Part shown: positions 5,144-30,506 of the stretch, piece by piece
Layout of the letters: each line of letters begins with the position of its first letter
Numbering within the stretch: position 1 is the first letter of the stretch
Assembly: GCA_964652735.1 (NCBI GenBank)
Contig: CAZZCD010000001.1
Coordinates: forward strand, 1 to 37,977
Reading direction: 5' to 3'
Source of the DNA: Candidatus Woesearchaeota archaeon
GTDB lineage: Archaea; Nanobdellota; Nanobdellia; Pacearchaeales; GW2011-AR1
Length of the DNA stretch: 37,977 nucleotides
Made by a program: the position numbers and the translations under genes
The notes under the pieces: model-generated
What the model saw: only the letters and a program-made list of their open reading frames with translations
Database searches by the model: none
Told to the model about the DNA's origin: nothing

Positions 5144-5258
5144 CGTCCCGGGTAGGACTCGAACCTACGACTTAACGGTCTCTATCGTTTTCTAGGAGGT
5201 GCGGAACCTAGGTTCTGCGCTAACAGCCGTTCGCTCTGACCAACTGAGCTACCGGGAC
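5144..5258 (-). tRNA. tRNA-Asn(GUU) with a 41-nt intron at canonical position 37/38
   Basis: The reverse complement folds as GUCCCGG-UA-GCUC-AGUUGGUCA-GAGC-G-AACGG-CUGUUA|intron|A-CCGUU-AAGUC-GUAGG-UUCGAGU-CCUAC-CCGGGAC-G. Acceptor stem is 7 bp and the discriminator is G73. BHB motif: CUGU pairs with AUAG, flanked by the 3-nt bulges UA|G and AG|A. The intron occupies 5180-5220. No CCA is encoded. Confidence 0.88.
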
Positions 5259-9680: not shown

Positions 9681-12600
9681 TTATGTTCTCCCAACATATC
9701 CTTTTCTTGGTTTGAAAATAACCCCGCTTATGTCAAGCTTTGTTATAGCCTCATCAATTTCATCTTTAGTAAGTTTTCCTTCAAGCTCTTTTTCTATCTC
9801 TTCTATAGGAATCATTTTCCCTAACTTATTTTCAAGATTTGTTATAGTATCTCTTACAAGGAAAACTTTGTTTCTCTGAGAAGCAGGCATGCCACCTGTT
9901 CCCCTGTCAATATCAAATGTTTTGGATTCATAATCATAACCTACCTGGGTTAAATAATATTTCATTATTTCTATTGCTCTTTTTGAATCTTCCATTGTTA
10001 CTTTTTCACTAAGCCTCATCTTTGCAGAAGCTTCTGACATTCTTATCAGAGCCTGAAGCTGCCTTGCAGAAATCGGAATAGGTCTTAAAACACCTTCAGA
10101 AGAAACAGGCATATTTCTTAGTTCAACATAAAATTTTTTTATTTCTTCGACAGCATCATCAGTCAGTACGGGTTTTATTCTTTGTTTTGCATAAGCAATA
10201 TATTTTCTAAAAAGCTCTTTTGGAATTAGCATATCTTCTCCTTCTTTTTGATGTGCATATAAAACATGAATTGCAATAAGTTCATCTTTTTTTCTGTCTG
10301 GAAGATCCCTTAAAGGAAAAATTACATCAAACCTATTAATAAGTGTAGGAGGTAAATCAATCTGCTGTGCGATTGGCTGGTAAGGATCAAATCTTCCAAA
10401 TTTTGGATTTGCTGCAGCAAGCACAGAAGTTTCAGCTCTTAGTGTATTACCTTGTATAGCTATTTTTCCATTCCTTCTTGTAACAAAGAATCCAGTATCA
10501 GTTGAAAAACAAAACACTTTTCCATTGTAATTTATTTTTTTTATTGAACTTCTTTTCATTTCTAATTCTTTTTTGTTAGAGATAGAAACTCTATACGCTG
10601 TTTTTCTTTTTCCTCTTGTTCCTTCCTTATAATGTATGTGTTGAGAAGCAGATTTCCCTGTTAAATGGGTTATTATCTGAAATTCATCTATTAATTCTTT
10701 TGAAATACACGAAAAATATTTTCCATCTGATGAGCCATCTCCAAGCATCATAGCATTGTATAAGGTTTTTAGCTGTTTTTTTGATAGTAATGAAAAATTT
10801 ATACTGAGATTTTTGAAATAACTTTTTTCTCCACATTTTCTTAGAAATTTATAAAGCTGTGTTTGAGTTATTTTAAATCTTACATATTGTTTGCAATCAA
10901 TTTCAGATAGAGAGCACCCCAAGGTTTGGGTTAATTTTTTGAGACATTTTTTTATTTTATTTGCTTTAGAACCTTTTTTTTGAACTATCCCTATTGTTGG
11001 GGCAGTTTCTATTCCCCCCTCTGTTACATAATATCCTAAAAATTCTAACCAAAGATCCATAGGGATTTTTTTATCCATATGTTGGTGAGTATATTTAATG
11101 TGTTTTCTTTTTTGTTTGTGTTTTATTGCAGGAAGAATAAAATATTTTTGTTCTTTTCCAGAATATTCTCCAGAATTAAGTATTTTTATTCTGTGTGAAG
11201 TTATATTTTCCGCATTTATCTTTTCATACTTTTTCCCTTTTTCCCTTTTTAGAAGCATTGTGTGATTGGGAGTGACTAAGATATCATTTCTTCTATTTTT
11301 AAAATGATACATTTTTCCTTTATAATCATAAACATAAAGTCCTTTATGGGGTAAAAATTTAATTGTTTTGTCTAATGGATTATATTGGGCAATTTTTTCA
11401 TTTTTAACTTCATAATATTTTTTCCAACCTTTTTCTGTGAGAACCATGGTGTCTTTGGAATAACATGCTTGAACATTAGCCTTGCTGATTGTTATTGTTT
11501 GTTGTTCCATTGCCTCATGCATAGCGCTTCTGTCACTTGGATCCATTTTTTCAAGCTCATCTATACACACAAGTCCTTTATTTGCAAGAACCATGGCCCC
11601 TGCTTCAAGAGACCAGCCACGTAGGTATTCATCACGCATAACTGTGGCGGTCAATCCTGCTCCTGAGGCAGATTTTCCTACAACATATCTTCCTTTTGGA
11701 GAGATTCTTGACATAAAAACAAGAGTTGCTGACTTTGCAACACCAGGATCTCCTATAAGAAGAATATGTAAATCACCACGACTTTTCTGTCCGTCTGCAT
11801 GAACTTTTGCAACTCCTCCAAACAACTGCAGGACAAGAGATTGTTTTATCTCAGTATAACCCCATACACTTGGGATAATACTTTTTGTCAGTTTTTCAAA
11901 TATTCCTGGGTCTTGTGAAAGTTCAAGTATTTGTCTTTCATCCTCCTCGTTTATATCAAGCTCTTCAAAAGTTTCTTCCATAGGAATTATATTATTGGCT
12001 TCAAGCGCAAGCTCAAACCGTGTTGATAATCCCCCAGAATGAAGAGGAACAGGAACTTCTTTTAAAATCCCAATAGATTTAACCCTGCTTCCAGGTGTTG
12101 TTTTTTCTTCCATTTTTGGCTCAACAAGATCTTCATTAAGGAAAACATTTATTCTTTTTGGCTGTTCTCCCCCTGATAAAGATTCAGGAGCTTCTTCAAT
12201 CACAAGTCTTTGAGTATCAACCATCTCTTTACTAATAAGTCTGAAGCTACCCCTTCTTCCACAAGAACATCTGGCAGGTTCACGGAACTTTTTTTCTATT
12301 TGCAAAACAGAAATAACAGTGCCACACGAAGGACATTCAAATTTTGCATTTATAACCTGAGGCCGTACATCTGATGCCTGCCTTACAATACCTTCAATGA
12401 TAATCATTTCATTAAGATCTTTTGAACGAATGTTTCTTACTTTTATCTCCTGGCTTTTTGGAAGATTCACAAGGCGAACTCTTAAATTGGTTATAAGACC
12501 TGTTTCTTCAATAGCCAACTCAACTATTCCCAAGGCTTCTTCAGGATTTATAAGTATTTCTTCAGCAAGTTTGTTTGAGAATTCTGTAAGTTTTGTGAAG

Positions 12601-12731
12601 TCGAGGTGTATTACATTTTTTCCTTTTCTGATAGACTCACCAATTTCTTTTTTATGAAACTCAAAGAAATTTTTTGCCTCAATCATTAATTCCTCATTTT
12701 TTGATTTGTTTGTCTGAACTTGCTCATCCAT
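9681..12731 (-). CDS. mcm: MCM replicative helicase, interrupted by an intein (1016 aa precursor, 676 aa after splicing)
   Basis: Zinc motif CPSCG...CSCG, Walker A LLIGDPGVAKS, Walker B GLVCIDELEKM, then QTITISKANVQA | intein | TLRAETSVLAAANP (arginine-finger region). Confidence 0.95.
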   Translation of the reverse strand: MDEQVQTNKSKNEELMIEAKNFFEFHKKEIGESIRKGKNVIHLDFTKLTEFSNKLAEEILINPEEALGIVELAIEETGLITNLRVRLVNLPKSQEIKVRNIRSKDLNEMIIIEGIVRQASDVRPQVINAKFECPSCGTVISVLQIEKKFREPARCSCGRRGSFRLISKEMVDTQRLVIEEAPESLSGGEQPKRINVFLNEDLVEPKMEEKTTPGSRVKSIGILKEVPVPLHSGGLSTRFELALEANNIIPMEETFEELDINEEDERQILELSQDPGIFEKLTKSIIPSVWGYTEIKQSLVLQLFGGVAKVHADGQKSRGDLHILLIGDPGVAKSATLVFMSRISPKGRYVVGKSASGAGLTATVMRDEYLRGWSLEAGAMVLANKGLVCIDELEKMDPSDRSAMHEAMEQQTITISKANVQACYSKDTMVLTEKGWKKYYEVKNEKIAQYNPLDKTIKFLPHKGLYVYDYKGKMYHFKNRRNDILVTPNHTMLLKREKGKKYEKINAENITSHRIKILNSGEYSGKEQKYFILPAIKHKQKRKHIKYTHQHMDKKIPMDLWLEFLGYYVTEGGIETAPTIGIVQKKGSKANKIKKCLKKLTQTLGCSLSEIDCKQYVRFKITQTQLYKFLRKCGEKSYFKNLSINFSLLSKKQLKTLYNAMMLGDGSSDGKYFSCISKELIDEFQIITHLTGKSASQHIHYKEGTRGKRKTAYRVSISNKKELEMKRSSIKKINYNGKVFCFSTDTGFFVTRRNGKIAIQGNTLRAETSVLAAANPKFGRFDPYQPIAQQIDLPPTLINRFDVIFPLRDLPDRKKDELIAIHVLYAHQKEGEDMLIPKELFRKYIAYAKQRIKPVLTDDAVEEIKKFYVELRNMPVSSEGVLRPIPISARQLQALIRMSEASAKMRLSEKVTMEDSKRAIEIMKYYLTQVGYDYESKTFDIDRGTGGMPASQRNKVFLVRDTITNLENKLGKMIPIEEIEKELEGKLTKDEIDEAITKLDISGVIFKPRKGYVGRT
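10446..11465 (-). mobile_element. MCM intein with LAGLIDADG homing-endonuclease domain (aa 423-762, 340 aa)
   Basis: The intein starts CYSKDTMVL (Cys1 codon at 11463-11465). Block B is VTPNH. LAGLIDADG motifs are LEFLGYYVTEGG and LYNAMMLGDGSS. It ends ...GKIAIQGN followed by Thr+1 (Asn codon at 10446-10448). Confidence 0.85.
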
Positions 12732-13025: not shown

Positions 13026-14537
13026 ATGGAAGTTAAATTAGCAGGAATTAATGTTCCAATAGGAATTCTGAGTAAGCTGCCCGAATCTGAGAAAGTCAGA
13101 GCTACACCAGAGGTTATTTCAGCAGCCTATGCGCGGATAAGCAGGAGCACTAAAAGCGTTGATGAACTTGTAATGGAATCTATAGAGAATGTTCAAAAGG
13201 CACGAGAGTCTAATGAAGCAATTATTTATGGTATGGGGCATCATTCTATTGCTGATCATGTGATTTTTAACTTAAACATTAAAGGAGTTTCGCGACTTCT
13301 TATTGAAAGCATAGAAAAAAGGCGTCTTGCAGGTTATACTGAAAAATCACAAAGATATGTAACTCTAGATGGGGACTATGTAAGGCCAAAAGAATTTTCT
13401 CCTAAAGATTTAGGAAAATTTGAAAAGCTTATCACCTTACAAAACGAATTTTATTTTAAGGTAAACCCGAGACTTTTAAATCATTTGAAAAAAAAGTTTC
13501 CTGATAATGGAGAAAAATTTTTAGAGAGCAAAGCAAAAGAAGACGCTCGCTTTAGTTTGGGTCTTGCAACAGAAGCCCAGCTTGGATGCTCATATACAGG
13601 TCAGACAGCAGAACTTGCAATTCGTGAGTTGAAATATGGTAGGTTGCAAGAAGAGAGAGAATTTGCCAAACTTCTTTATAATACAATTGTGAAAAAAGCC
13701 CCCTCAATAATTCAATTGACTGACCCTGAATTGTTTTCACAACACAATCCTGGACAAGAATTTAAAGACGACAATTTTAAGTTTACAAAAAGCAACCTTG
13801 AGAGCCTTGTGAAAAAGACTTTTGCTGAGAATCAGGAATTTATAGACTACCATGAAGTTGGGTTAGGGGGTAATTTTAGTTATTATGATAAGGTGACTCT
13901 TGTTAATTCTAATGATATAGACCTAAACATCCTTACAGCAATTTTACATAAAAATTCAAAAAGAGATATTCGGGAATGTTATGCTATATCAACCTTGTTA
14001 ATAGAGAGGGGAAGTGCTCAGGCTTTTATTAAAGAAGCCTTAAAACACATCAGCGAGCATGATAAAGTTCCTAGAGAATTTGAAACTTCTGGGTTAATTT
14101 ATGAGGTTGTTATTAGTGCAAGTGGTTTTGCACAGTTAAAAAGGCATAGAATGAATACTTTGCTTTCACAAGATTATAATCCAGATATAGGTTACACAAT
14201 TCCACAAAGCATTGAAGAGATTGGGGCATCCCGGGGTCTTAAAGGGGTTTGTGATAAAAGTTCAGAACTTTATAAAAAATTTTTATCAAAATACGGTAGA
14301 GCTGCTGAATACTGCCTAACAAATGCACATAGAAGGAGAGTTATTGTCGCAACAAACATGAGACAACTTTATCATATTTCAAGGACGCGCGAAGACAAAC
14401 ACGCGCAATGGGAAATTCGAGACATAGCAAATAAGATGTCAAAGTTAGCTAAGAATATTGCGCCAGCAACAACAATTTTATTAGGAGGAAAGCATGAATT
14501 TAATGAAATAAGAGGGGGATTGTATGAAGACGAATAA
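13026..14537 (+). CDS. thyX: FAD-dependent thymidylate synthase ThyX, double-length tandem-domain form
   Basis: The N-terminal half reads GHHSIADHVIFNLNIKGVSRLLIESIEKRRLAGYTEKSQRYV, a ThyX core with RHR degraded to KRR. The C-terminal half reads ...ASGFAQLKRHRMNTLLSQ ... NMRQLYHISRTREDKHAQWEIRDIA, a canonical RHR and ThyX C-terminal motif. At 503 aa it is about twice the typical length. Confidence 0.7.
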   Translation: MEVKLAGINVPIGILSKLPESEKVRATPEVISAAYARISRSTKSVDELVMESIENVQKARESNEAIIYGMGHHSIADHVIFNLNIKGVSRLLIESIEKRRLAGYTEKSQRYVTLDGDYVRPKEFSPKDLGKFEKLITLQNEFYFKVNPRLLNHLKKKFPDNGEKFLESKAKEDARFSLGLATEAQLGCSYTGQTAELAIRELKYGRLQEEREFAKLLYNTIVKKAPSIIQLTDPELFSQHNPGQEFKDDNFKFTKSNLESLVKKTFAENQEFIDYHEVGLGGNFSYYDKVTLVNSNDIDLNILTAILHKNSKRDIRECYAISTLLIERGSAQAFIKEALKHISEHDKVPREFETSGLIYEVVISASGFAQLKRHRMNTLLSQDYNPDIGYTIPQSIEEIGASRGLKGVCDKSSELYKKFLSKYGRAAEYCLTNAHRRRVIVATNMRQLYHISRTREDKHAQWEIRDIANKMSKLAKNIAPATTILLGGKHEFNEIRGGLYEDE

Positions 14538-18008: not shown

Positions 18009-18581
18009 TTATTTCCCCAACCTTCCTTTTGCTCTTAAGCTTGGTCTGGTTTTCATTTCTCTGGATTTTTTTCTTAGACCACGGGCTTTTTTCCCTGCGC
18101 TTGTAAGTCCTCTAAAAGGTCTTTTTCTGTTTTCTGGTTTTGTTATCCAGTTTATTGTTTTGTCATTTTTTATTTCAGGTCTTTTAGGATCTACTAAGAT
18201 AATTTCATAAAAATAATGTACTCCATCTTTTCCGATTAAATATGAGTTAAGCACCTCAAGATTTGTATATTTTCTCGCAGCTCTCTGCTCGGCAATCCAT
18301 TGGTAATTCATTCTTAGAGTTTTTCTGGTGTGAAGTCTTTTGCTTCTTCGGCCTTTATTAGGTCTTGGTCTTTTGTGCCCCCCTCTTTTTATTCTAACAC
18401 GGACAATCACAAAACCTTTTTTGTTTTTATACCCTAAGACACGTGCTCTGTCAAGCCTTAATGGTTTGTCAACTTTTACAATTGTCTGACTTTTACGCCA
18501 TTCAATCATTCTCTCTCTAAGAGTTTTTATATCTGGTTTTTTCCACGCTTCTTTCAAAAAATGATACATTCCTTTTGCCAT
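18009..18581 (-). CDS. rpl15e: 50S ribosomal protein L15e
   Basis: MAKGMYHFLKEAWKKP...RLDRARVLGYKNKKGFVIVRVRIKRGG is highly characteristic of L15e. Confidence 0.95.
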   Translation of the reverse strand: MAKGMYHFLKEAWKKPDIKTLRERMIEWRKSQTIVKVDKPLRLDRARVLGYKNKKGFVIVRVRIKRGGHKRPRPNKGRRSKRLHTRKTLRMNYQWIAEQRAARKYTNLEVLNSYLIGKDGVHYFYEIILVDPKRPEIKNDKTINWITKPENRKRPFRGLTSAGKKARGLRKKSREMKTRPSLRAKGRLGK

Positions 18582-18593
18582 TTTATTTTTAAA

Positions 18594-18741
18594 TGAGCCT
18601 GCTCGGATTTGAACCGAGGACCCCTACCTGGCTGAGATTAAGATAAGATCTTTCCTGTCTTAATCCTATCAGAATCACCTCCTGCTTGACTTTTACATCA
18701 AGGCAGAATGTAGTGCTCTAACCAGACTGAGCTACAGGCTC
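18594..18741 (-). tRNA. tRNA-Ile(GAU) with two introns (36 nt at 30/31 and 37 nt at 37/38)
   Basis: The reverse complement reads GAGCCUG-UA-GCUC-AGUCUGGUUA-GAGC-A-CUAC|36 nt|U-CUGAUA|37 nt|A-GGUAG-GGGUC-CUCGG-UUCAAAU-CCGAG-CAGGCUC-A. Exons are 18710-18741, 18667-18673 and 18594-18629. Both introns are flanked by BHB-type motifs (see findings). Confidence 0.78.
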
Positions 18742-18792
18742 ATTAAAATTTGAAAGAAAAGGTATATTTATAAGTTTTCTTACTTCCTTGCT

Positions 18793-25746: not shown

Positions 25747-28128
25747 ATGAAACACTATGATGCTAAAGAAGTAGAAGAAAAGATAAAAAAGTTCTGGGAA
25801 AAGGAGAAGATTTACAAGTTTGACAAGAAAAAAGGAAAAATTTACAGTATTGATACACCCCCACCATATGCTTCTTCTGGTCATTTGCATGTAGGTCATG
25901 CTTTGCATTATACACAATTTGAGATTATAGCAAGAATTAGAAGACAGTTAGGATTTAATGTTTATTTTGCTCCTGGTTTTGATGACAATGGACTTCCAAC
26001 TGAAAAATATGTTGAAGAGAAATTAGGAATAGATAAATCAAAGACAAATAGGGCTGAATTCAGAAAATTATGTTTAAAAGAGAGTGAAAAAGTTGAAAAA
26101 ATTTATACTGAGAGAGTTTTCAAAAGATTAGGATATAGTTATGATTGGAGTTTGTTATATACAACCATTTCTAAAGAAGCACAGAAAGTAGCTCAAATGT
26201 CTTTTTTAAAATTAGTGAAAAAAGGAGATTGTTATAGATCAGAAGAACCTGTAATATGGTGTCCTTATCATGAGACAGCCCTAGCTCAGGCAGAAGTTGA
26301 AGATTTACAGAGAGAAACTAAACTAAATTATATTGATTTCAATCTTGTTGGAGGTGGAAAAATAAATATCGCTACGACCAGACCAGAATTTCTTCCTGCT
26401 TGTGTAGCTATTTTTGTACATCCTAAAGATAAAAAAAATAAAAACTTAATCGGAAAAGAAGTTATTATCCCTTTGTTTAATCATAAAGTTAAAGTTATGA
26501 CTGATGAAAGTGTTGATCCTGAATTTGGAACAGGTACTATGATGGTTTGTACTTTTGGAGATAATGCAGATATAGAAAAGTGGAAAAAATACAAATTTGA
26601 CCTTAGAGATATTGTGAATAAAGATGGAACCTTGAATCAAAGAGCAGACCAATATCAAGGAATGAAGCTGGAAGAAGCTAAAGAAGCCATAATAAATGAT
26701 TTAATGAAAATAGGGAGAATAAAAAAACAAGAGCCTTTGCAGCAGACAGTTGGTAGTTGTTGGAGATGTTCCACACCTGTTGAATATATAATAGCGAAAC
26801 AATGGTTTATTAAGACTTTAAAATATAAGAAGGAATTGATTAAAAGAGGAAAGCAGATTAAATGGTATCCTCATTTTATGAGGAAGAGATTTGAAAACTG
26901 GACAGAAAATTTAGGATGGGATTGGGTTATTTCGAGACAAAGATTTTATGGAGTACCTATTCCTGCATGGTATTGTGAAGATTGTGATGAGATAATTTTA
27001 CCGAACGAAAAGGAATTACCTATTGATTCAATTGCCACAAAAAGAAAATGTCCTAAATGTAAAAAAGAAGCTATTCCAGATACAGATGTTTTTGATACAT
27101 GGATGACTTCTAGTAATACTCCTGAAATAGCAAGTAGATGGTTAGAAAAACCAGAACTTTACAAAAAAATTTCCCCTATGTCGTTGCGACCGCAGTCACA
27201 CGATATAATAAGGACTTGGGCTTTTTACACAATTTTGAAGAGTCATCTATTATTCAACAGAATTCCCTGGAAAAACATCATGATTGGAACTTATGTTCTT
27301 GATTCTAAGGGTAAAGGAATGCATAAATCTAAAGGAAACGTTATATTGGCAGACGAATTAATAAAAAAGTATAATGTTGATGCATTTAGATATTGGGTTG
27401 GAGGTGCAAGCTTAGGAAGTGATTTACCTTTTGATGAAAAAGAATTGATAGCAGGAAAAAGATTCTTAACCAAGTTATGGAACGCTTCTAGATTTGTTTT
27501 TATGAATCTTAAAAACTATGGGGGAAAAAGACCAAAAAAACTAGAAAAAATTGATGAATTATTTTTACAAGAATTATCTCTTTTAGTTAATGAAGTTAAA
27601 AATCATTTTTTAAAATATAATATCGCTGAAGGAAAAAGAAAAATTGAAACTTTCTTTTGGAACGCATTTTGTGATAATTATTTAGAACTTATTAAGAAAA
27701 GAATTTATCAAAATAAATCAGGGAAACAATCTGCACAATACACACTTTATCATTCTTTCTTAACTATTCTAAAATTAATTTCTCCAATCACTCCTTTTAT
27801 TACAGAAAAGCTTTATCAGGAATATTTCAAAAAATATGAGAAACTTAAGAGCATTCATCTTTCTGATTGGCCGGAATATAAGAAAATAAAAAGATCAAAA
27901 GACTGGAATATTATCACTAAAAATGTTTCATTGGTTAGACAAGCAAAAACTAAAAAACAAGTTCCATTAAATTTTGCAAGTGGAGCTATAATTATTCCTA
28001 CAGAAGAATACAAGCTCCTTAAAAATTATGAAGAGCCTTTTTTAGCTGCTTCAGGAGCAATATGTATTAAAGTAGGCAAGAAATTTGAAATAGATATCCA
28101 AAAGGAGAGAACCCAAATTAAAAAATGA
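25747..28128 (+). CDS. valS: valyl-tRNA synthetase
   Basis: DTPPPYASSGHLHVGHAL is the HIGH region of archaeal ValRS type. Also present are GFDDNGLPTE, TTRPEFLPACVAIFVHP, GTGTMMVCTFGD and the KMSKS variant GMHKSKGN. IleRS or LeuRS is less likely but not excluded without an alignment. Confidence 0.82.
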   Translation: MKHYDAKEVEEKIKKFWEKEKIYKFDKKKGKIYSIDTPPPYASSGHLHVGHALHYTQFEIIARIRRQLGFNVYFAPGFDDNGLPTEKYVEEKLGIDKSKTNRAEFRKLCLKESEKVEKIYTERVFKRLGYSYDWSLLYTTISKEAQKVAQMSFLKLVKKGDCYRSEEPVIWCPYHETALAQAEVEDLQRETKLNYIDFNLVGGGKINIATTRPEFLPACVAIFVHPKDKKNKNLIGKEVIIPLFNHKVKVMTDESVDPEFGTGTMMVCTFGDNADIEKWKKYKFDLRDIVNKDGTLNQRADQYQGMKLEEAKEAIINDLMKIGRIKKQEPLQQTVGSCWRCSTPVEYIIAKQWFIKTLKYKKELIKRGKQIKWYPHFMRKRFENWTENLGWDWVISRQRFYGVPIPAWYCEDCDEIILPNEKELPIDSIATKRKCPKCKKEAIPDTDVFDTWMTSSNTPEIASRWLEKPELYKKISPMSLRPQSHDIIRTWAFYTILKSHLLFNRIPWKNIMIGTYVLDSKGKGMHKSKGNVILADELIKKYNVDAFRYWVGGASLGSDLPFDEKELIAGKRFLTKLWNASRFVFMNLKNYGGKRPKKLEKIDELFLQELSLLVNEVKNHFLKYNIAEGKRKIETFFWNAFCDNYLELIKKRIYQNKSGKQSAQYTLYHSFLTILKLISPITPFITEKLYQEYFKKYEKLKSIHLSDWPEYKKIKRSKDWNIITKNVSLVRQAKTKKQVPLNFASGAIIIPTEEYKLLKNYEEPFLAASGAICIKVGKKFEIDIQKERTQIKK

Positions 28129-30506
28129 CAAAATTAGATAAAACAGAACTTGCAGAAATTTTAGAGCAACTCGAGAAATACAAAGGAAAACATACAGAGC
28201 TTGTTACAATCTATGTTCCTGCAGGATATGATATTAATTCTGTACAAAGACAGCTTGGGGCAGAAAAATCAACTGCAAAAAATATTAAATCAACTTCTAC
28301 GAGGAAAAATGTTATTGATGCTTTGGAAAAACTTATTCGTGAACTTAAGACTTTGAAGAAAACCCCTGAAAATGGTCTTGCCATTTTTTCTGGAAATATT
28401 TCAAAGAGTGAAGGGCAGCAGGATTTGCAGTTATGGGCTATAGAACCTTATTCTCCGATAAAAAGCAGACTTTACAGGTGTGATAAAGAATTTGTACTTG
28501 AACCCTTGAAAGAAATGCTTGAAGTCTCTGAAGTATTTGGTCTTTTAGTTATGGATAGGAAAGAAGCAACCATAGGAATTCTTGAAGGAAAAAGGATAGA
28601 TGTTCTTCAGAAGATGACTTCTGGAGTTCCAAGTAAGGTTAGAGCTGGGGGTCAATGTTTGAATCCAGATACATTAATTATGAAAGATGACGGGGATATT
28701 TTAGAAATTAGAAACTCTCATAATCCTTCAATGATTATTTCTGAAAATTTCAATACCGAAAGAATTGAAGAGACTCCTCTTATAACTAAATGGGAAAACG
28801 AGAAAGAAATTTACAAAATAATAACTTGTTACCCTCAAATTGAAATTAAAGCTTCTGGAGAACATATCTTTTTTGTTAGAAATGAGAAAGGAATTGAAGA
28901 AAAACCTTTATCTGAGATTCATGAAAGGGATTATTTAATAATGCCTGAAAAAATTGATTTGAATTTGAAAGATCAGAAAATTTCTTTTACCCCCAAAATA
29001 AAACAATCATTTAATATGAAACAAATAAATATCCCTAAAAAAATTCATCCCTCTTTTTCAAGAATTTTGGGTTATTATTTGGGTGACGGAAGTTGGGAAA
29101 TTGATAGGATAACTTTTTTTGAACAAAGAAAAGAGGTGGCTGAGCATTACAAAAATTTAGTAATGCAGGTCTTTAGTATCAATTCTGATTTGAGATTTAG
29201 AGAAGCTAAAAATTATTGGCAATTAAGAGTTTATAGCAGAATTGTTTCCCAGTTAATTAAACAGATATTTTCTAAATCTGATAAGACATTAACAGAAAGA
29301 ATTCCCGCACTTGTTTTAAAATCTTCTGATAGATCCTTAGCTGCGTTTATTGGTGGTTTTTTTGATGCTGAAGGCTATGTTTCAAAAACAGGGGTGGCCT
29401 CGGGATTTAATAATGAATTGTTAGCGAAGCAGTTACAATTTTCTTTGTTAAGACTTGGAATTATAAGTTCAATAAACAAATATGATAATAAGAGAAATCC
29501 CTATTCAGATAAGATAAGGCATACTGTTTCAATTGATGATCTTGAATCCTTGAAAAAATTTAAAGGATTGATTGGATTTTGCTCTGTGGAAAAACAAAAG
29601 AAACTTAACAATTTAATAGAAAACAGGGGTAGTAGGAGTAAAGTTAGGCAGCTAATTGTCAATGGAAGCGAAGTCGCAAAAATTATAAGAAATTCAGGAT
29701 TAAACACAAGAGATTTTCATTGTGGATATTTTTTCTGCAATAAAAGACAGATGAGCAAAGAAATTTTCAAGAAAAGAATTTTAGATAAAATACAAAATGA
29801 AGAATTGAGGAAAAGATTAGCGTTATTTTATAATTCCAATTTAATAGCTATTAAGATATCTAAAATTGAGAAGATTGGAATTATGCCTACGATAGACATT
29901 GAAACTAAAAATCACAATTTTCTTGCTAATGGATTAATAGTACATAATTCAAGTCAGAGATTTCACAGAATTACAGAAGGTCTTACAAAAGAGTTTTATA
30001 AAAGAATTGCAGATGAAATGAAAAAAATATTTTTTAACATGCCTAAATTGAAAGGAATTATTATTGGGGGGCCTGTGCCAACAAAAGACGAGTTCTTGGA
30101 TGTAGAATATATGGCTACACAGCTTAGAGAAAAGATTATTGGAAAAATTGACATAGGAGATGCTTCAGAATCAGGACTTAACGAACTTGTTGGAAAATCA
30201 CAAAATCTTTTAAAAGACCATGAAAGAACCTTAGAGAAAAAAGATATTGAAAAGTTTTTTAAGAATCTTGGGGAGAATCCAGAAAAGACTTTTCTTGGAG
30301 AAGAAAACAATAAAAGGGCTTTGGAGGTAGGAGCTGTAGACATTCTATATTTATCAAACAAACTCTCAAAATCACTTGTAAAAGAGCTAACTAAGATGGC
30401 TGAAAACACAGGGGCTGAAGTAAAAGTAATATCAACAGAAACCACTGAAGGAGAGCAGTTTTATAATATGGGGGGAATTGGTTCTATTTTAAGGTTTAAG
30501 GTTTGA
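28125..30506 (+). CDS. prf1: peptide chain release factor aRF1, interrupted by an intein (793 aa precursor, 362 aa after splicing)
   Basis: NIKS motif (AKNIKS), YxCxxxF (LYRCDKEF) and the GGQ motif RAGGQ | intein | SSQRFHR. The start overlaps the valS stop (ATGA). Confidence 0.93.
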   Translation: MTKLDKTELAEILEQLEKYKGKHTELVTIYVPAGYDINSVQRQLGAEKSTAKNIKSTSTRKNVIDALEKLIRELKTLKKTPENGLAIFSGNISKSEGQQDLQLWAIEPYSPIKSRLYRCDKEFVLEPLKEMLEVSEVFGLLVMDRKEATIGILEGKRIDVLQKMTSGVPSKVRAGGQCLNPDTLIMKDDGDILEIRNSHNPSMIISENFNTERIEETPLITKWENEKEIYKIITCYPQIEIKASGEHIFFVRNEKGIEEKPLSEIHERDYLIMPEKIDLNLKDQKISFTPKIKQSFNMKQINIPKKIHPSFSRILGYYLGDGSWEIDRITFFEQRKEVAEHYKNLVMQVFSINSDLRFREAKNYWQLRVYSRIVSQLIKQIFSKSDKTLTERIPALVLKSSDRSLAAFIGGFFDAEGYVSKTGVASGFNNELLAKQLQFSLLRLGIISSINKYDNKRNPYSDKIRHTVSIDDLESLKKFKGLIGFCSVEKQKKLNNLIENRGSRSKVRQLIVNGSEVAKIIRNSGLNTRDFHCGYFFCNKRQMSKEIFKKRILDKIQNEELRKRLALFYNSNLIAIKISKIEKIGIMPTIDIETKNHNFLANGLIVHNSSQRFHRITEGLTKEFYKRIADEMKKIFFNMPKLKGIIIGGPVPTKDEFLDVEYMATQLREKIIGKIDIGDASESGLNELVGKSQNLLKDHERTLEKKDIEKFFKNLGENPEKTFLGEENNKRALEVGAVDILYLSNKLSKSLVKELTKMAENTGAEVKVISTETTEGEQFYNMGGIGSILRFKV
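28656..29948 (+). mobile_element. aRF1 intein with LAGLIDADG homing-endonuclease domain (aa 178-608, 431 aa), inserted directly after the GGQ glutamine
   Basis: The intein starts CLNPDTLIM (TGT at 28656-28658). Block B is ASGEH. LAGLIDADG motifs are ILGYYLGDGSW and FIGGFFDAEGYV. The C-terminal blocks TIDIETKNHNFLANGLIVHN are followed by Ser+1 (AAT at 29946-29948). Confidence 0.87.

What the first reader, a model, noticed from the sequence alone, without database searches (positions are those of the whole stretch)
18594..18741. tRNA-Ile(GAU) carrying two introns, one at non-canonical position 30/31
The 148-nt gene has perfect acceptor, D and T arms but 73 extra nucleotides in the anticodon arm. 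A single-intron model fails: it gives an A31-G39 mismatch and a pyrimidine at position 37. A two-intron model fits precisely.

**Intron 2** (37 nt, 18630-18666, position 37/38) lies in a textbook hBHBh' motif:
- CUGA (32-35) pairs with UCAG.
- The 3-nt bulges are UA|G and CC|A.
- The inner helix is GAUUAAGA/UCUUAAUC.

**Intron 1** (36 nt, 18674-18709, position 30/31) has:
- A central helix CACU/GGUG.
- Bulges AC|A and AU|U.
- A 10-bp inner helix UUCUGC(C)UUGA/UCAAGCAGGA.

Splicing yields the anticodon arm CUACU-CUGAUAA-GGUAG. The middle exon is only 7 nt. Multi-intron tRNAs with non-canonical sites are documented mainly in Thermoproteales and a few other archaea, so finding one in this lineage bears on the specificity of its splicing endonuclease.
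Basis: seen in the sequence. Interest (0 to 1): 0.62.

Follow-up and report, generated by a model that had tools for sequence, protein, structure and literature searches.

The report
Two-intron isoleucine tRNA gene
An isoleucine tRNA gene of an uncultured DPANN (Woese-/Pacearchaeota-type) archaeon is interrupted by two short protein-spliced introns, one at the usual site and one at position 30/31; intron-free relatives confirm the reading exactly, but such genes are already known in archaea.

Summary
The gene lies on the minus strand (18741->18594). It reads: exon 1, a 36-nt intron at 30/31, a 7-nt exon UCUGAUA, a 37-nt intron at 37/38, then exon 3.

The decisive evidence is comparative. The same tRNA-Ile(GAU) gene sits upstream of the ribosomal protein L15e gene in related Nanoarchaeota/Woese-/Pacearchaeota genomes. 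It occurs there in all four states: no intron, intron 1 only, intron 2 only, and both. The intron-free orthologs equal the predicted spliced product.

- 46 of the 102 genes parsed from genomes and metagenomes carry the 30/31 intron.
- The inner helix of this intron shows compensatory changes.
- All 53 distinct canonical introns keep the 4-bp central helix.
- A conserved BRE/TATA box lies upstream.

Splicing itself is inferred. The RNA data were inconclusive and the splicing endonuclease gene (EndA) is not in the window.

The kind is known. Position 30/31 is a listed non-canonical site, and disrupted tRNA genes have been reported for DPANN, including Pace- and Woesearchaeota. Because the 30/31 motif is a formally complete hBHBh', it does not by itself demand a broad-specificity endonuclease. 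This is a new member of a known kind, of modest interest.

The parts
18594..18741 (-). tRNA-Ile(GAU) gene, 148 nt, 75 nt after removal of both introns
   Evidence: Rfam RF00005 at 48.6 bits. The in-silico spliced form is called tRNA-Ile(gat) by ARAGORN. Intron-free ortholog L003 scores 69.0 bits.
18710..18741 (-). Exon 1: tRNA positions 1-30 (acceptor 5' strand, D arm, anticodon-stem positions 27-30, CUAC)
   Evidence: Sequence. The boundary is fixed by intron-free orthologs.
18674..18709 (-). Intron 1: 36 nt at non-canonical position 30/31, AUUCUGCCUUGAUGUAAAAGUCAAGCAGGAGGUGAU
   Evidence: 46 of 102 orthologous genes carry a homologous insert at this exact site. On 43 distinct sequences, 96% of BHB cells are paired against 55% or less when partners are slid. 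Five pairs change on both sides; 61 cells do so against 20.5 in shuffles, 0/500.
18712..18715 (-). BHB-1 central helix, 5' strand: C25 A26 C27 U28 (exon). It pairs with GGUG at 18676-18679.
   Evidence: Sequence. Formed in the minimum-free-energy fold. Invariant in all 43 sequences, but this stretch is constrained by the exon and by the search pattern.
18667..18673 (-). Middle exon, 7 nt UCUGAUA: tRNA positions 31-37, including anticodon G34 A35 U36
   Evidence: Sequence. Identical to the corresponding stretch of intron-free orthologs.
18630..18666 (-). Intron 2: 37 nt at canonical position 37/38. Its BHB has a CUGA/UCAG central helix, bulges UA|G and CC|A, and an 8-bp inner helix.
   Evidence: Sequence. 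All 53 distinct 37/38 introns of orthologs keep a 4-bp helix with CUGA (UCAG, UUAG, UCGG or UUGG). With intron 1 removed, ARAGORN reports Ile(gat) with a 37-nt intron.
18594..18629 (-). Exon 3: tRNA positions 38-73 (A38, anticodon-stem 3' strand GGUAG, variable loop, T arm, acceptor 3' strand, discriminator A)
   Evidence: Sequence; Rfam alignment.
18765..18778 (-). Archaeal promoter-like element AAAACUUAUAAAUA (BRE plus TATA box). The TATA box lies about -32 to -24 from tRNA position 1.
   Evidence: The same motif is present at the same distance upstream of most orthologous tRNA-Ile genes. That it acts as a promoter is inferred from established knowledge of archaeal BRE/TATA promoters.

Best explanation
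This is the functional tRNA-Ile(GAU) gene of a marine-sediment DPANN archaeon (GTDB Nanoarchaeota, Woese-/Pacearchaeota-like). Two archaeal bulge-helix-bulge (BHB) introns interrupt it.

**Proposed mechanism**
1. The gene is transcribed from a BRE/TATA promoter as a 148-nt precursor.
2. The splicing endonuclease EndA cuts in the two 3-nt bulges that flank each 4-bp helix. It removes the 36-nt intron between positions 30 and 31 and the 37-nt intron between positions 37 and 38.
3. An RtcB-type ligase joins exon 1, the 7-nt exon UCUGAUA and exon 3 into a 75-nt tRNA with the anticodon arm CUACU-CUGAUAA-GGUAG.

**Order of splicing**
The two BHB folds compete for positions 27-28 and 31-33. In addition, the 7-nt exon would be held only by four pairs to intron 2 if both introns were cut at once. 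Splicing is therefore probably sequential with refolding. Intron 1 is mildly favoured to go first: its BHB lies 3.3 kcal/mol above the minimum free energy, against 5.9 for intron 2.

**Evolution**
The 30/31 intron belongs to a conserved intron family specific to this tRNA in this clade. Its distribution is patchy, consistent with old presence and repeated precise loss, though horizontal replacement of alleles is not excluded.

**Shown and inferred**
- Shown: gene structure, splice boundaries, structural conservation.
- Inferred: actual cleavage and ligation, order of splicing, enzyme type.
For: - **Boundaries.** Intron-free orthologs equal the predicted ligation product, and all four presence/absence states exist at the same locus upstream of the L15e gene. 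Of 102 parsed genes, 37 have both introns, 9 only intron 1, 20 only intron 2 and 36 neither.
- **Recurrence.** 40 metagenome contigs hold the same 30/31 intron.
- **Covariation in the intron-1 inner helix.** C-G, U-A and U-G alternate at one pair; U-A alternates with G-C, and A-U with G-C. 96% of cells are paired against 55% or less in slid controls, and 0/500 shuffles reach the observed covariation.
- **Intron 2.** 53 of 53 distinct canonical introns keep the central helix.
- **Model scores.** The tRNA model gives 69.0 bits to the intron-free equivalent and 48.6 bits, with a mismatch, to the single-insert reading. ARAGORN calls Ile(gat) after in-silico splicing.
- **Expression signal.** A conserved BRE/TATA motif lies upstream.
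- **Energetics.** Constrained folds give minimum free energy -56.5, BHB-1 -53.2, BHB-2 -50.6 and both together -48.2 kcal/mol.
- **Assembly.** Independent contigs from two runs reproduce the sequence.
- **Literature.** Position 30/31 is a listed non-canonical intron site (PMC4090602). DPANN EndAs of alpha4 type with an L3 loop are associated with increased tRNA gene disruption (PMC5829648).
Against: - There is no direct RNA evidence. The metatranscriptome data available are assembled contigs. The joined form seen there cannot be told from the intron-free genes of relatives, which co-occur in DNA runs of similar sediments.
- EndA and RtcB are not in the window nor in 724 kb of related loci.
- The central and outer helices of BHB-1 never vary. 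They are constrained by the exon and by my search pattern, so they add no covariation support.
- Forming BHB-1 requires melting the 3' strand of the D stem.
- The rest of the genome could not be checked for a second tRNA-Ile(GAU) copy.
Confidence: 0.9

Rival explanations
1. The gene carries a single long insertion of 73-80 nt in the anticodon arm and has another anticodon. Examples are ARAGORN's Glu(CUC) with a 73-nt intron, or a Gln-like CUG loop.
For: Rfam aligns the gene with one 78-nt insert. ARAGORN in intron mode reports tRNA-Glu(ctc) i(39,73) on the precursor.
Against: - The single-insert alignment has a non-standard 31-39 pair and scores 20 bits less than the intron-free ortholog.
- The ARAGORN model places the intron inside the anticodon, with no BHB.
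- Orthologs with one intron or none all read GAU in the loop CUGAUAA.
- Relatives carry either insert alone.
Confidence: 0.02
2. The locus is a decaying tRNA pseudogene, or carries remnants of mobile-element insertion that are not spliced. Under this reading the functional tRNA-Ile(GAU) lies elsewhere in the genome.
For: The rest of the genome is not available. Partial duplicates of the tRNA-Ile 5' part exist just upstream of the gene in two relatives, L007 and L076, so rearrangements do occur at this locus.
Against: - The acceptor, D and T arms are perfect.
- Both BHB motifs are intact, and compensatory changes maintain them across dozens of divergent genomes.
- The promoter is conserved.
- Synteny with the L15e gene is retained.
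- No intron-1-like sequence occurs outside this tRNA context in 760 kb of held sequence.
Confidence: 0.04
3. The gene structure is the same, but the 30/31 intron spreads horizontally between lineages, by gene conversion or allele replacement or as a mobile BHB intron like those of Thermoproteales. This contrasts with vertical inheritance followed by loss.
For: Intron 1 appears at seven or more separated places on an L15e neighbour-joining tree, next to intron-free close relatives. For example, the window, L001 and L002 group beside L003 and L004.
Against: - The intron is found only at one site of one tRNA; it occurs nowhere else in the held sequence.
- The intron helices diverge gradually, with compensatory changes.
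- A single-protein 190-aa neighbour-joining tree resolves poorly, so repeated precise loss explains the pattern equally well.
Confidence: 0.25

Closest known systems
Multiple-intron tRNA genes of Thermoproteales (Crenarchaeota), e.g. Pyrobaculum tRNA-Pro(UGG) (Sugahara et al. 2007/2008, as cited in PMC4090602)
   Same: BHB introns occur at a non-canonical site in the anticodon stem together with the canonical 37/38 intron in one gene. The internal exons are short. Position 30/31 is among the listed sites.
   Different: The host is a DPANN archaeon, not a TACK hyperthermophile. The intron family here stays at one site of one tRNA, whereas Thermoproteales introns transposed among many tRNAs. The expected endonuclease type differs: alpha4 with an L3 loop by literature inference, against (alpha-beta)2 with the Crenarchaea-specific loop.
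Nanoarchaeum equitans split tRNA-Lys(CUU), broken at 30/31
   Same: The tRNA gene is disrupted at the same position, 30/31, and processed through a BHB-type motif in a member of the Nanoarchaeota (PMC4090602).
   Different: That gene is split into two separately transcribed halves joined in trans. Here the intron is in cis, in a contiguous gene, and is accompanied by a second intron.
Disrupted tRNA genes of other DPANN archaea (ARMAN-2 with epsilon2 EndA; Pace-/Woesearchaeota, Nanohaloarchaea with alpha4 + L3 EndA)
   Same: The superphylum is the same. The literature reports non-canonical and multiple introns and links them to loop insertions in EndA (PMC3239211; PMC5829648).
   Different: Searches of the held library turned up no paper that describes this specific, widely conserved tRNA-Ile(GAU) 30/31 intron family. 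The EndA of this genome was not available for testing.
Methanopyrus kandleri pre-tRNA-Glu(UUC) with multiple introns
   Same: A multi-intron archaeal pre-tRNA that has been used as an EndA substrate (PMC5829648).
   Different: It is a euryarchaeal host with an (alpha-beta)2 enzyme lacking specific loops. Its non-canonical intron has a relaxed motif that is cut poorly. Here the 30/31 motif is formally complete.

Membership tests
Archaeal BHB (EndA-dependent) tRNA intron | After removal of the insert(s), the exons reconstitute a canonical cloverleaf tRNA. | tested here: met
   The in-silico spliced product is called tRNA-Ile(gat) by ARAGORN. L003, which differs from it by one D-loop base, scores 69.0 bits on RF00005 with no mismatch.
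Archaeal BHB (EndA-dependent) tRNA intron | A 4-bp helix flanked by two 3-nt bulges at each exon-intron junction, with cut sites after the second bulge nucleotide, plus flanking helices h and h'. | tested here: met
   Read from the sequence for both introns. Compatible folds lie within 3.3 and 5.9 kcal/mol of the minimum free energy. The inner helix of intron 1 covaries, and 53/53 canonical introns keep the central helix. The outer helix of intron 1 is only 2 bp and competes with the D stem.
Archaeal BHB (EndA-dependent) tRNA intron | The genome encodes EndA and an RtcB-type ligase. | not testable with these tools
   No tRNA_int_endo domain was found in the window ORFs scanned. tblastn with M. 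jannaschii EndA, verified against PDB 1A79, found nothing in 724 kb of window plus loci. The source contig could not be extended.
Archaeal BHB (EndA-dependent) tRNA intron | The introns are removed in vivo: mature tRNA lacks them and excised or circular introns are present. | tested here: inconclusive
   Only assembled contigs of metatranscriptomes were available. A joined form is present in run X33, but identical intron-free genes of relatives exist in DNA runs.
Multi-intron tRNA gene with a non-canonical intron position | Two or more separate introns in one tRNA gene, at least one of them away from 37/38. | tested here: met
   Relatives carry each intron alone at identical boundaries: L052 has 30/31 only, and L005, L006 and others have 37/38 only. 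This shows two independent units at 30/31 and 37/38.
tRNA-Ile(GAU) | Anticodon GAU in a 7-nt loop with U33 and a purine at 37, in a standard cloverleaf. | tested here: met
   Loop C32 U33 G34 A35 U36 A37 A38 and stem CUACU/GGUAG with U31.G39. The loop UCUGAUA-A is identical in nearly all 102 orthologs.
Intron-encoded C/D box sRNA (as in the haloarchaeal tRNA-Trp intron), considered and rejected | Conserved C (RUGAUGA) and D (CUGA) boxes in the intron. | tested here: not met
   UGAUGU in the window's intron 1 is not conserved: orthologs have GGUGUA, GGGGUA or GAGGUA at that place in alignment A1. The only CUGA is the anticodon loop itself.

The most novel reading that the evidence does not exclude
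The 30/31 intron may be a long-lived, clade-specific intron family of tRNA-Ile(GAU) in Woese-/Pacearchaeota that is kept by selection rather than merely tolerated.

Its terminal loop (G)UAAAA(G) is nearly invariant, while the stem beneath it changes by compensatory substitutions. This would fit a sequence-specific role. Possible roles are a recognition element for an alpha4+L3-type endonuclease that must unfold the D arm, enforcement of an obligatory splicing order around the 7-nt micro-exon, or protection of the gene against integrating elements.
Probability: 0.12. Interest if true: 0.55.

Novelty: new member of a known kind. Interest (0 to 1): 0.3.

Why it matters
**Annotation.** Default tRNA finders miss this gene, and ARAGORN in intron mode mislabels it as tRNA-Glu(CUC). 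Genomes of this clade can therefore appear to lack tRNA-Ile(GAU), which depresses completeness estimates and suggests false gaps in decoding.

**Biology.** The ortholog series offers a natural set of matched substrates: none, either, or both introns, in dozens of variants. These could be used to test what DPANN splicing endonucleases accept, and how a 7-nt internal exon is retained during two rounds of cutting and ligation.

It does not change the current picture of archaeal tRNA splicing.

Tried and rejected
- **ARAGORN, default mode:** found no tRNA in the window.
- **ARAGORN, intron mode:** on the precursor it gives an artefactual Glu(CUC) with a 73-nt intron. I rejected this against the orthologs.
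- **RNA evidence:** two run searches and one laying of four RNA-type runs gave only exon-level matches from relatives, plus a joined form that cannot be told from intron-free genes. One metatranscriptome contig (X30) carries an intron-1-bearing form from a relative. That could be precursor RNA or DNA carry-over.
- **EndA:** Pfam scans of 30 window ORFs and tblastn with verified M. jannaschii EndA against all held DNA found none. Attempts to extend the source contig by exact-protein look-up failed or returned only a 5-kb contig. I ran no further search on EndA, because hits could not be tied to this genome.
- **Mobility:** intron-1-like sequence was not found outside the tRNA-Ile context in the held sequence.
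- **C/D-box guide RNA in intron 1:** rejected, because the box is not conserved.
- **Other structured RNAs:** a permissive Rfam scan of the window found nothing beyond the two tRNAs.

Full report
**What is there**

The window is 31% G+C archaeal DNA. It encodes MCM, TBP, aRF1, ATP-dependent DNA ligase, FtsZ and L15e, among others.

The closest relatives of its L15e gene in GTDB genomes are MAGs labelled Nanoarchaeota, Woesearchaeota or Pacearchaeota. DNA runs that hold the sequence are marine-sediment metagenomes.

Rfam's tRNA model matches the minus strand from 18741 to 18594 at 48.6 bits, but only by skipping a 78-nt insert and accepting a non-standard 31-39 pair. ARAGORN in default mode finds nothing.

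| Part | Window coordinates | Length | Content |
|---|---|---|---|
| Exon 1 | 18741-18710 | 32 nt | tRNA positions 1-30 |
| Intron 1 | 18709-18674 | 36 nt | at 30/31 |
| Middle exon | 18673-18667 | 7 nt | UCUGAUA, positions 31-37 |
| Intron 2 | 18666-18630 | 37 nt | at 37/38 |
| Exon 3 | 18629-18594 | 36 nt | positions 38-73 |

Both bulge-helix-bulge motifs are present as described. Intron 1 also has a 2-bp outer helix (G24-C32, A23-U33), so it is formally a complete hBHBh' motif, although it borrows the 3' strand of the D stem.

Independent Logan contigs from two runs of one sample reproduce the whole region without a difference. Assembly error is therefore excluded.

**The decisive test: orthologs**

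In the window the tRNA ends 12 nt before the L15e start codon. I fetched 80 L15e loci from GTDB species genomes and searched them with a structure-only tRNA finder that makes no assumption about introns. The same tRNA-Ile gene is found upstream of L15e in most of them, in every possible state.

- L003 and L004 (93% and 91% L15e identity) have no intron. They read ...GAGCA CUAC UCUGAUA AGGUAG..., precisely the product predicted from the window gene.
- L001, L002, L008, L010, L011, L049 and L064 have both introns, homologous to those of the window.
- L052 has only the 30/31 intron.
- About twenty loci have only a 37/38 intron, of varied length and sequence.

Shifting either junction by one base would give a product different from the intron-free genes, so the splice sites are fixed to the nucleotide.

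A pattern scan of metagenome contigs for the 3' end of intron 1 joined to the middle exon returned 40 more contigs, from groundwater, sediment and other sources. Together 102 genes were parsed: 37 with both introns, 9 with intron 1 only, 20 with intron 2 only, and 36 with none.

**Structure conservation**

I aligned 43 distinct sequences spanning intron 1 (alignment A1) and counted pairs for the BHB structure.

- 96% of cells are paired, against 42-55% when partners are slid by 1-3 columns.
- Five pairs change on both sides.
- 61 cells change on both sides, against 20.5 in shuffles (0/500 reach the observed value).
- The covariation score is 0.286 against 0.156 (0/500).

All informative variation lies in the inner helix. 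The central and outer helices never vary, which says nothing either way, because the exon and my search pattern constrain them.

For intron 2, all 53 distinct sequences keep a 4-bp helix with CUGA(32-35). It is written as UCAG, UUAG, UCGG or UUGG, that is, with G.U alternatives only.

- L003, which differs from the predicted mature window tRNA by one D-loop base, scores 69.0 bits with no mismatch. Relatives with one intron score 50.0-58.9 bits, and the two-intron genes 47.4-48.6 bits.
- ARAGORN calls the in-silico spliced sequence tRNA-Ile(gat), and the form lacking intron 1 tRNA-Ile(gat) with a 37-nt intron.
- Forced to a single intron on the full precursor, ARAGORN returns tRNA-Glu(ctc) with a 73-nt intron inside the anticodon. 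This is an artefact.

**Expression and mechanism**

The motif AAAACUUAUAAAUA (BRE plus TATA) lies at about -37 to -24. It is conserved at that distance in most orthologs, which argues for a transcribed gene.

Cleavage by EndA in the bulges and ligation by RtcB follow from established knowledge of archaeal BHB introns. Neither step is shown here.

The two BHB folds overlap at positions 27-28 and 31-33. Constrained folding gives the following energies:

| Fold | Energy (kcal/mol) |
|---|---|
| Minimum free energy | -56.5 |
| BHB-1 enforced | -53.2 |
| BHB-2 enforced | -50.6 |
| Both enforced | -48.2 |

A 7-nt exon released by simultaneous cutting would be held only by four pairs to intron 2. I therefore infer sequential splicing with refolding, with intron 1 mildly favoured to go first. 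The order is an inference only.

**RNA data**

Only assembled contigs of metatranscriptomes were available.

- One run of unknown type (X33) holds the joined form, exon 3 + UAUCAGA + exon 1 as read on the plus strand.
- DNA runs of similar sediments hold identical intron-free alleles from relatives, so this joined form is not evidence of splicing.
- One metatranscriptome contig (X30) carries an intron-1-bearing form from a relative. It could be precursor RNA or DNA carry-over.

**Endonuclease**

No EndA domain is present in the window ORFs scanned. No similarity to M. jannaschii EndA, whose sequence I verified against PDB 1A79, was found in 724 kb of window plus loci. The source contig could not be extended.

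From the literature:
- DPANN EndAs are alpha4, (alpha-beta)2 (N. equitans) or epsilon2 (ARMAN-1/-2, Mia14).
- Alpha4 enzymes with an L3 loop in several DPANN lineages are associated with more disrupted tRNA genes.
- One Pacearchaeota and one Woesearchaeota genome were included in that survey (PMC5829648).

The 30/31 motif here is formally complete rather than a relaxed hBH or HBh' motif (definitions in PMC6379350). It therefore does not by itself require a broad-specificity enzyme.

**Comparison and novelty**

- Position 30/31 is a listed non-canonical intron site, and N. equitans splits tRNA-Lys(CUU) there (PMC4090602).
- Multiple-intron tRNAs are known in Thermoproteales, M. kandleri, ARMAN and other DPANN.
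- Three searches of the held library found no description of this particular tRNA-Ile 30/31 intron family.

This is a new, well-documented member of a known kind.

On an L15e neighbour-joining tree the intron is patchy, appearing at seven or more separate places. This fits repeated precise loss or allele replacement, but the tree is too weak to decide between them.

**Verdict**

Novelty is low to moderate and interest is 0.3. The practical value is for tRNA annotation of DPANN genomes and as a natural substrate series for endonuclease studies.

Noticed in passing
window 5144-5258 (-): A second intron-bearing tRNA: tRNA-Asn(GUU) with a 41-nt intron at the canonical 37/38 site (CUGU/AUAG central helix, bulges UA|G and AG|A). 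Rfam scores it 59.7 bits. ARAGORN in default mode misses it too.
   Followed up: partly
window 9681-12731 (-), 28125-30506 (+), 13026-14537 (+): MCM (1016 aa) and aRF1 (793 aa) both carry intein/LAGLIDADG insertions that split their conserved domains. ThyX is unusually long (503 aa), with the Thy1 domain matched in two stretches, so it may also carry an insertion.
   Followed up: no
alignment A1 columns 25-31 (window about 18696-18691, intron 1 hairpin loop): The terminal loop of the 30/31 intron, (G)UAAAA(G), is nearly invariant in 43 distinct sequences, while the stem below it changes by compensatory substitutions. No explanation was found.
   Followed up: partly
L007 2830-2884 and L076 2151-2223: A partial duplicate of the 5' part of tRNA-Ile (acceptor 5' strand and D arm) sits directly upstream of the intact gene in two relatives. 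It looks like a remnant of an element that integrated into the tRNA gene.
   Followed up: no
window 18581-18594: The L15e start codon lies only 12 nt downstream of the tRNA 3' end, with only a short T run between them. The same tight arrangement occurs in L003 and L004. The tRNA and L15e may be co-transcribed.
   Followed up: no
L001 (JAUVYE010000026.1), L003 (DATKUW010000004.1): These public records are titled 'bacterium' and 'Bacillota bacterium'. They carry archaeal L15e (97% and 93% identical to the window) and this archaeal tRNA-Ile, so the bins are probably mislabelled or contaminated.
   Followed up: no
L010 48-153, L054 1310-1415, L065 111-216: tRNA-Gly(CCC) genes near L15e in relatives carry a 36-nt insert after the anticodon, while orthologs in other loci (L006, L007, L040 and others) have none. 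This is another presence/absence intron series in the clade.
   Followed up: no
run X30 laid on window 18594-18624: A metatranscriptome contig from a sediment sample continues from exon 3 into ...AAGGUGAU|UCUGAUA|AGGCG. That is an intron-1-bearing, intron-2-free form from a relative. It could be pre-tRNA or DNA carry-over.
   Followed up: no
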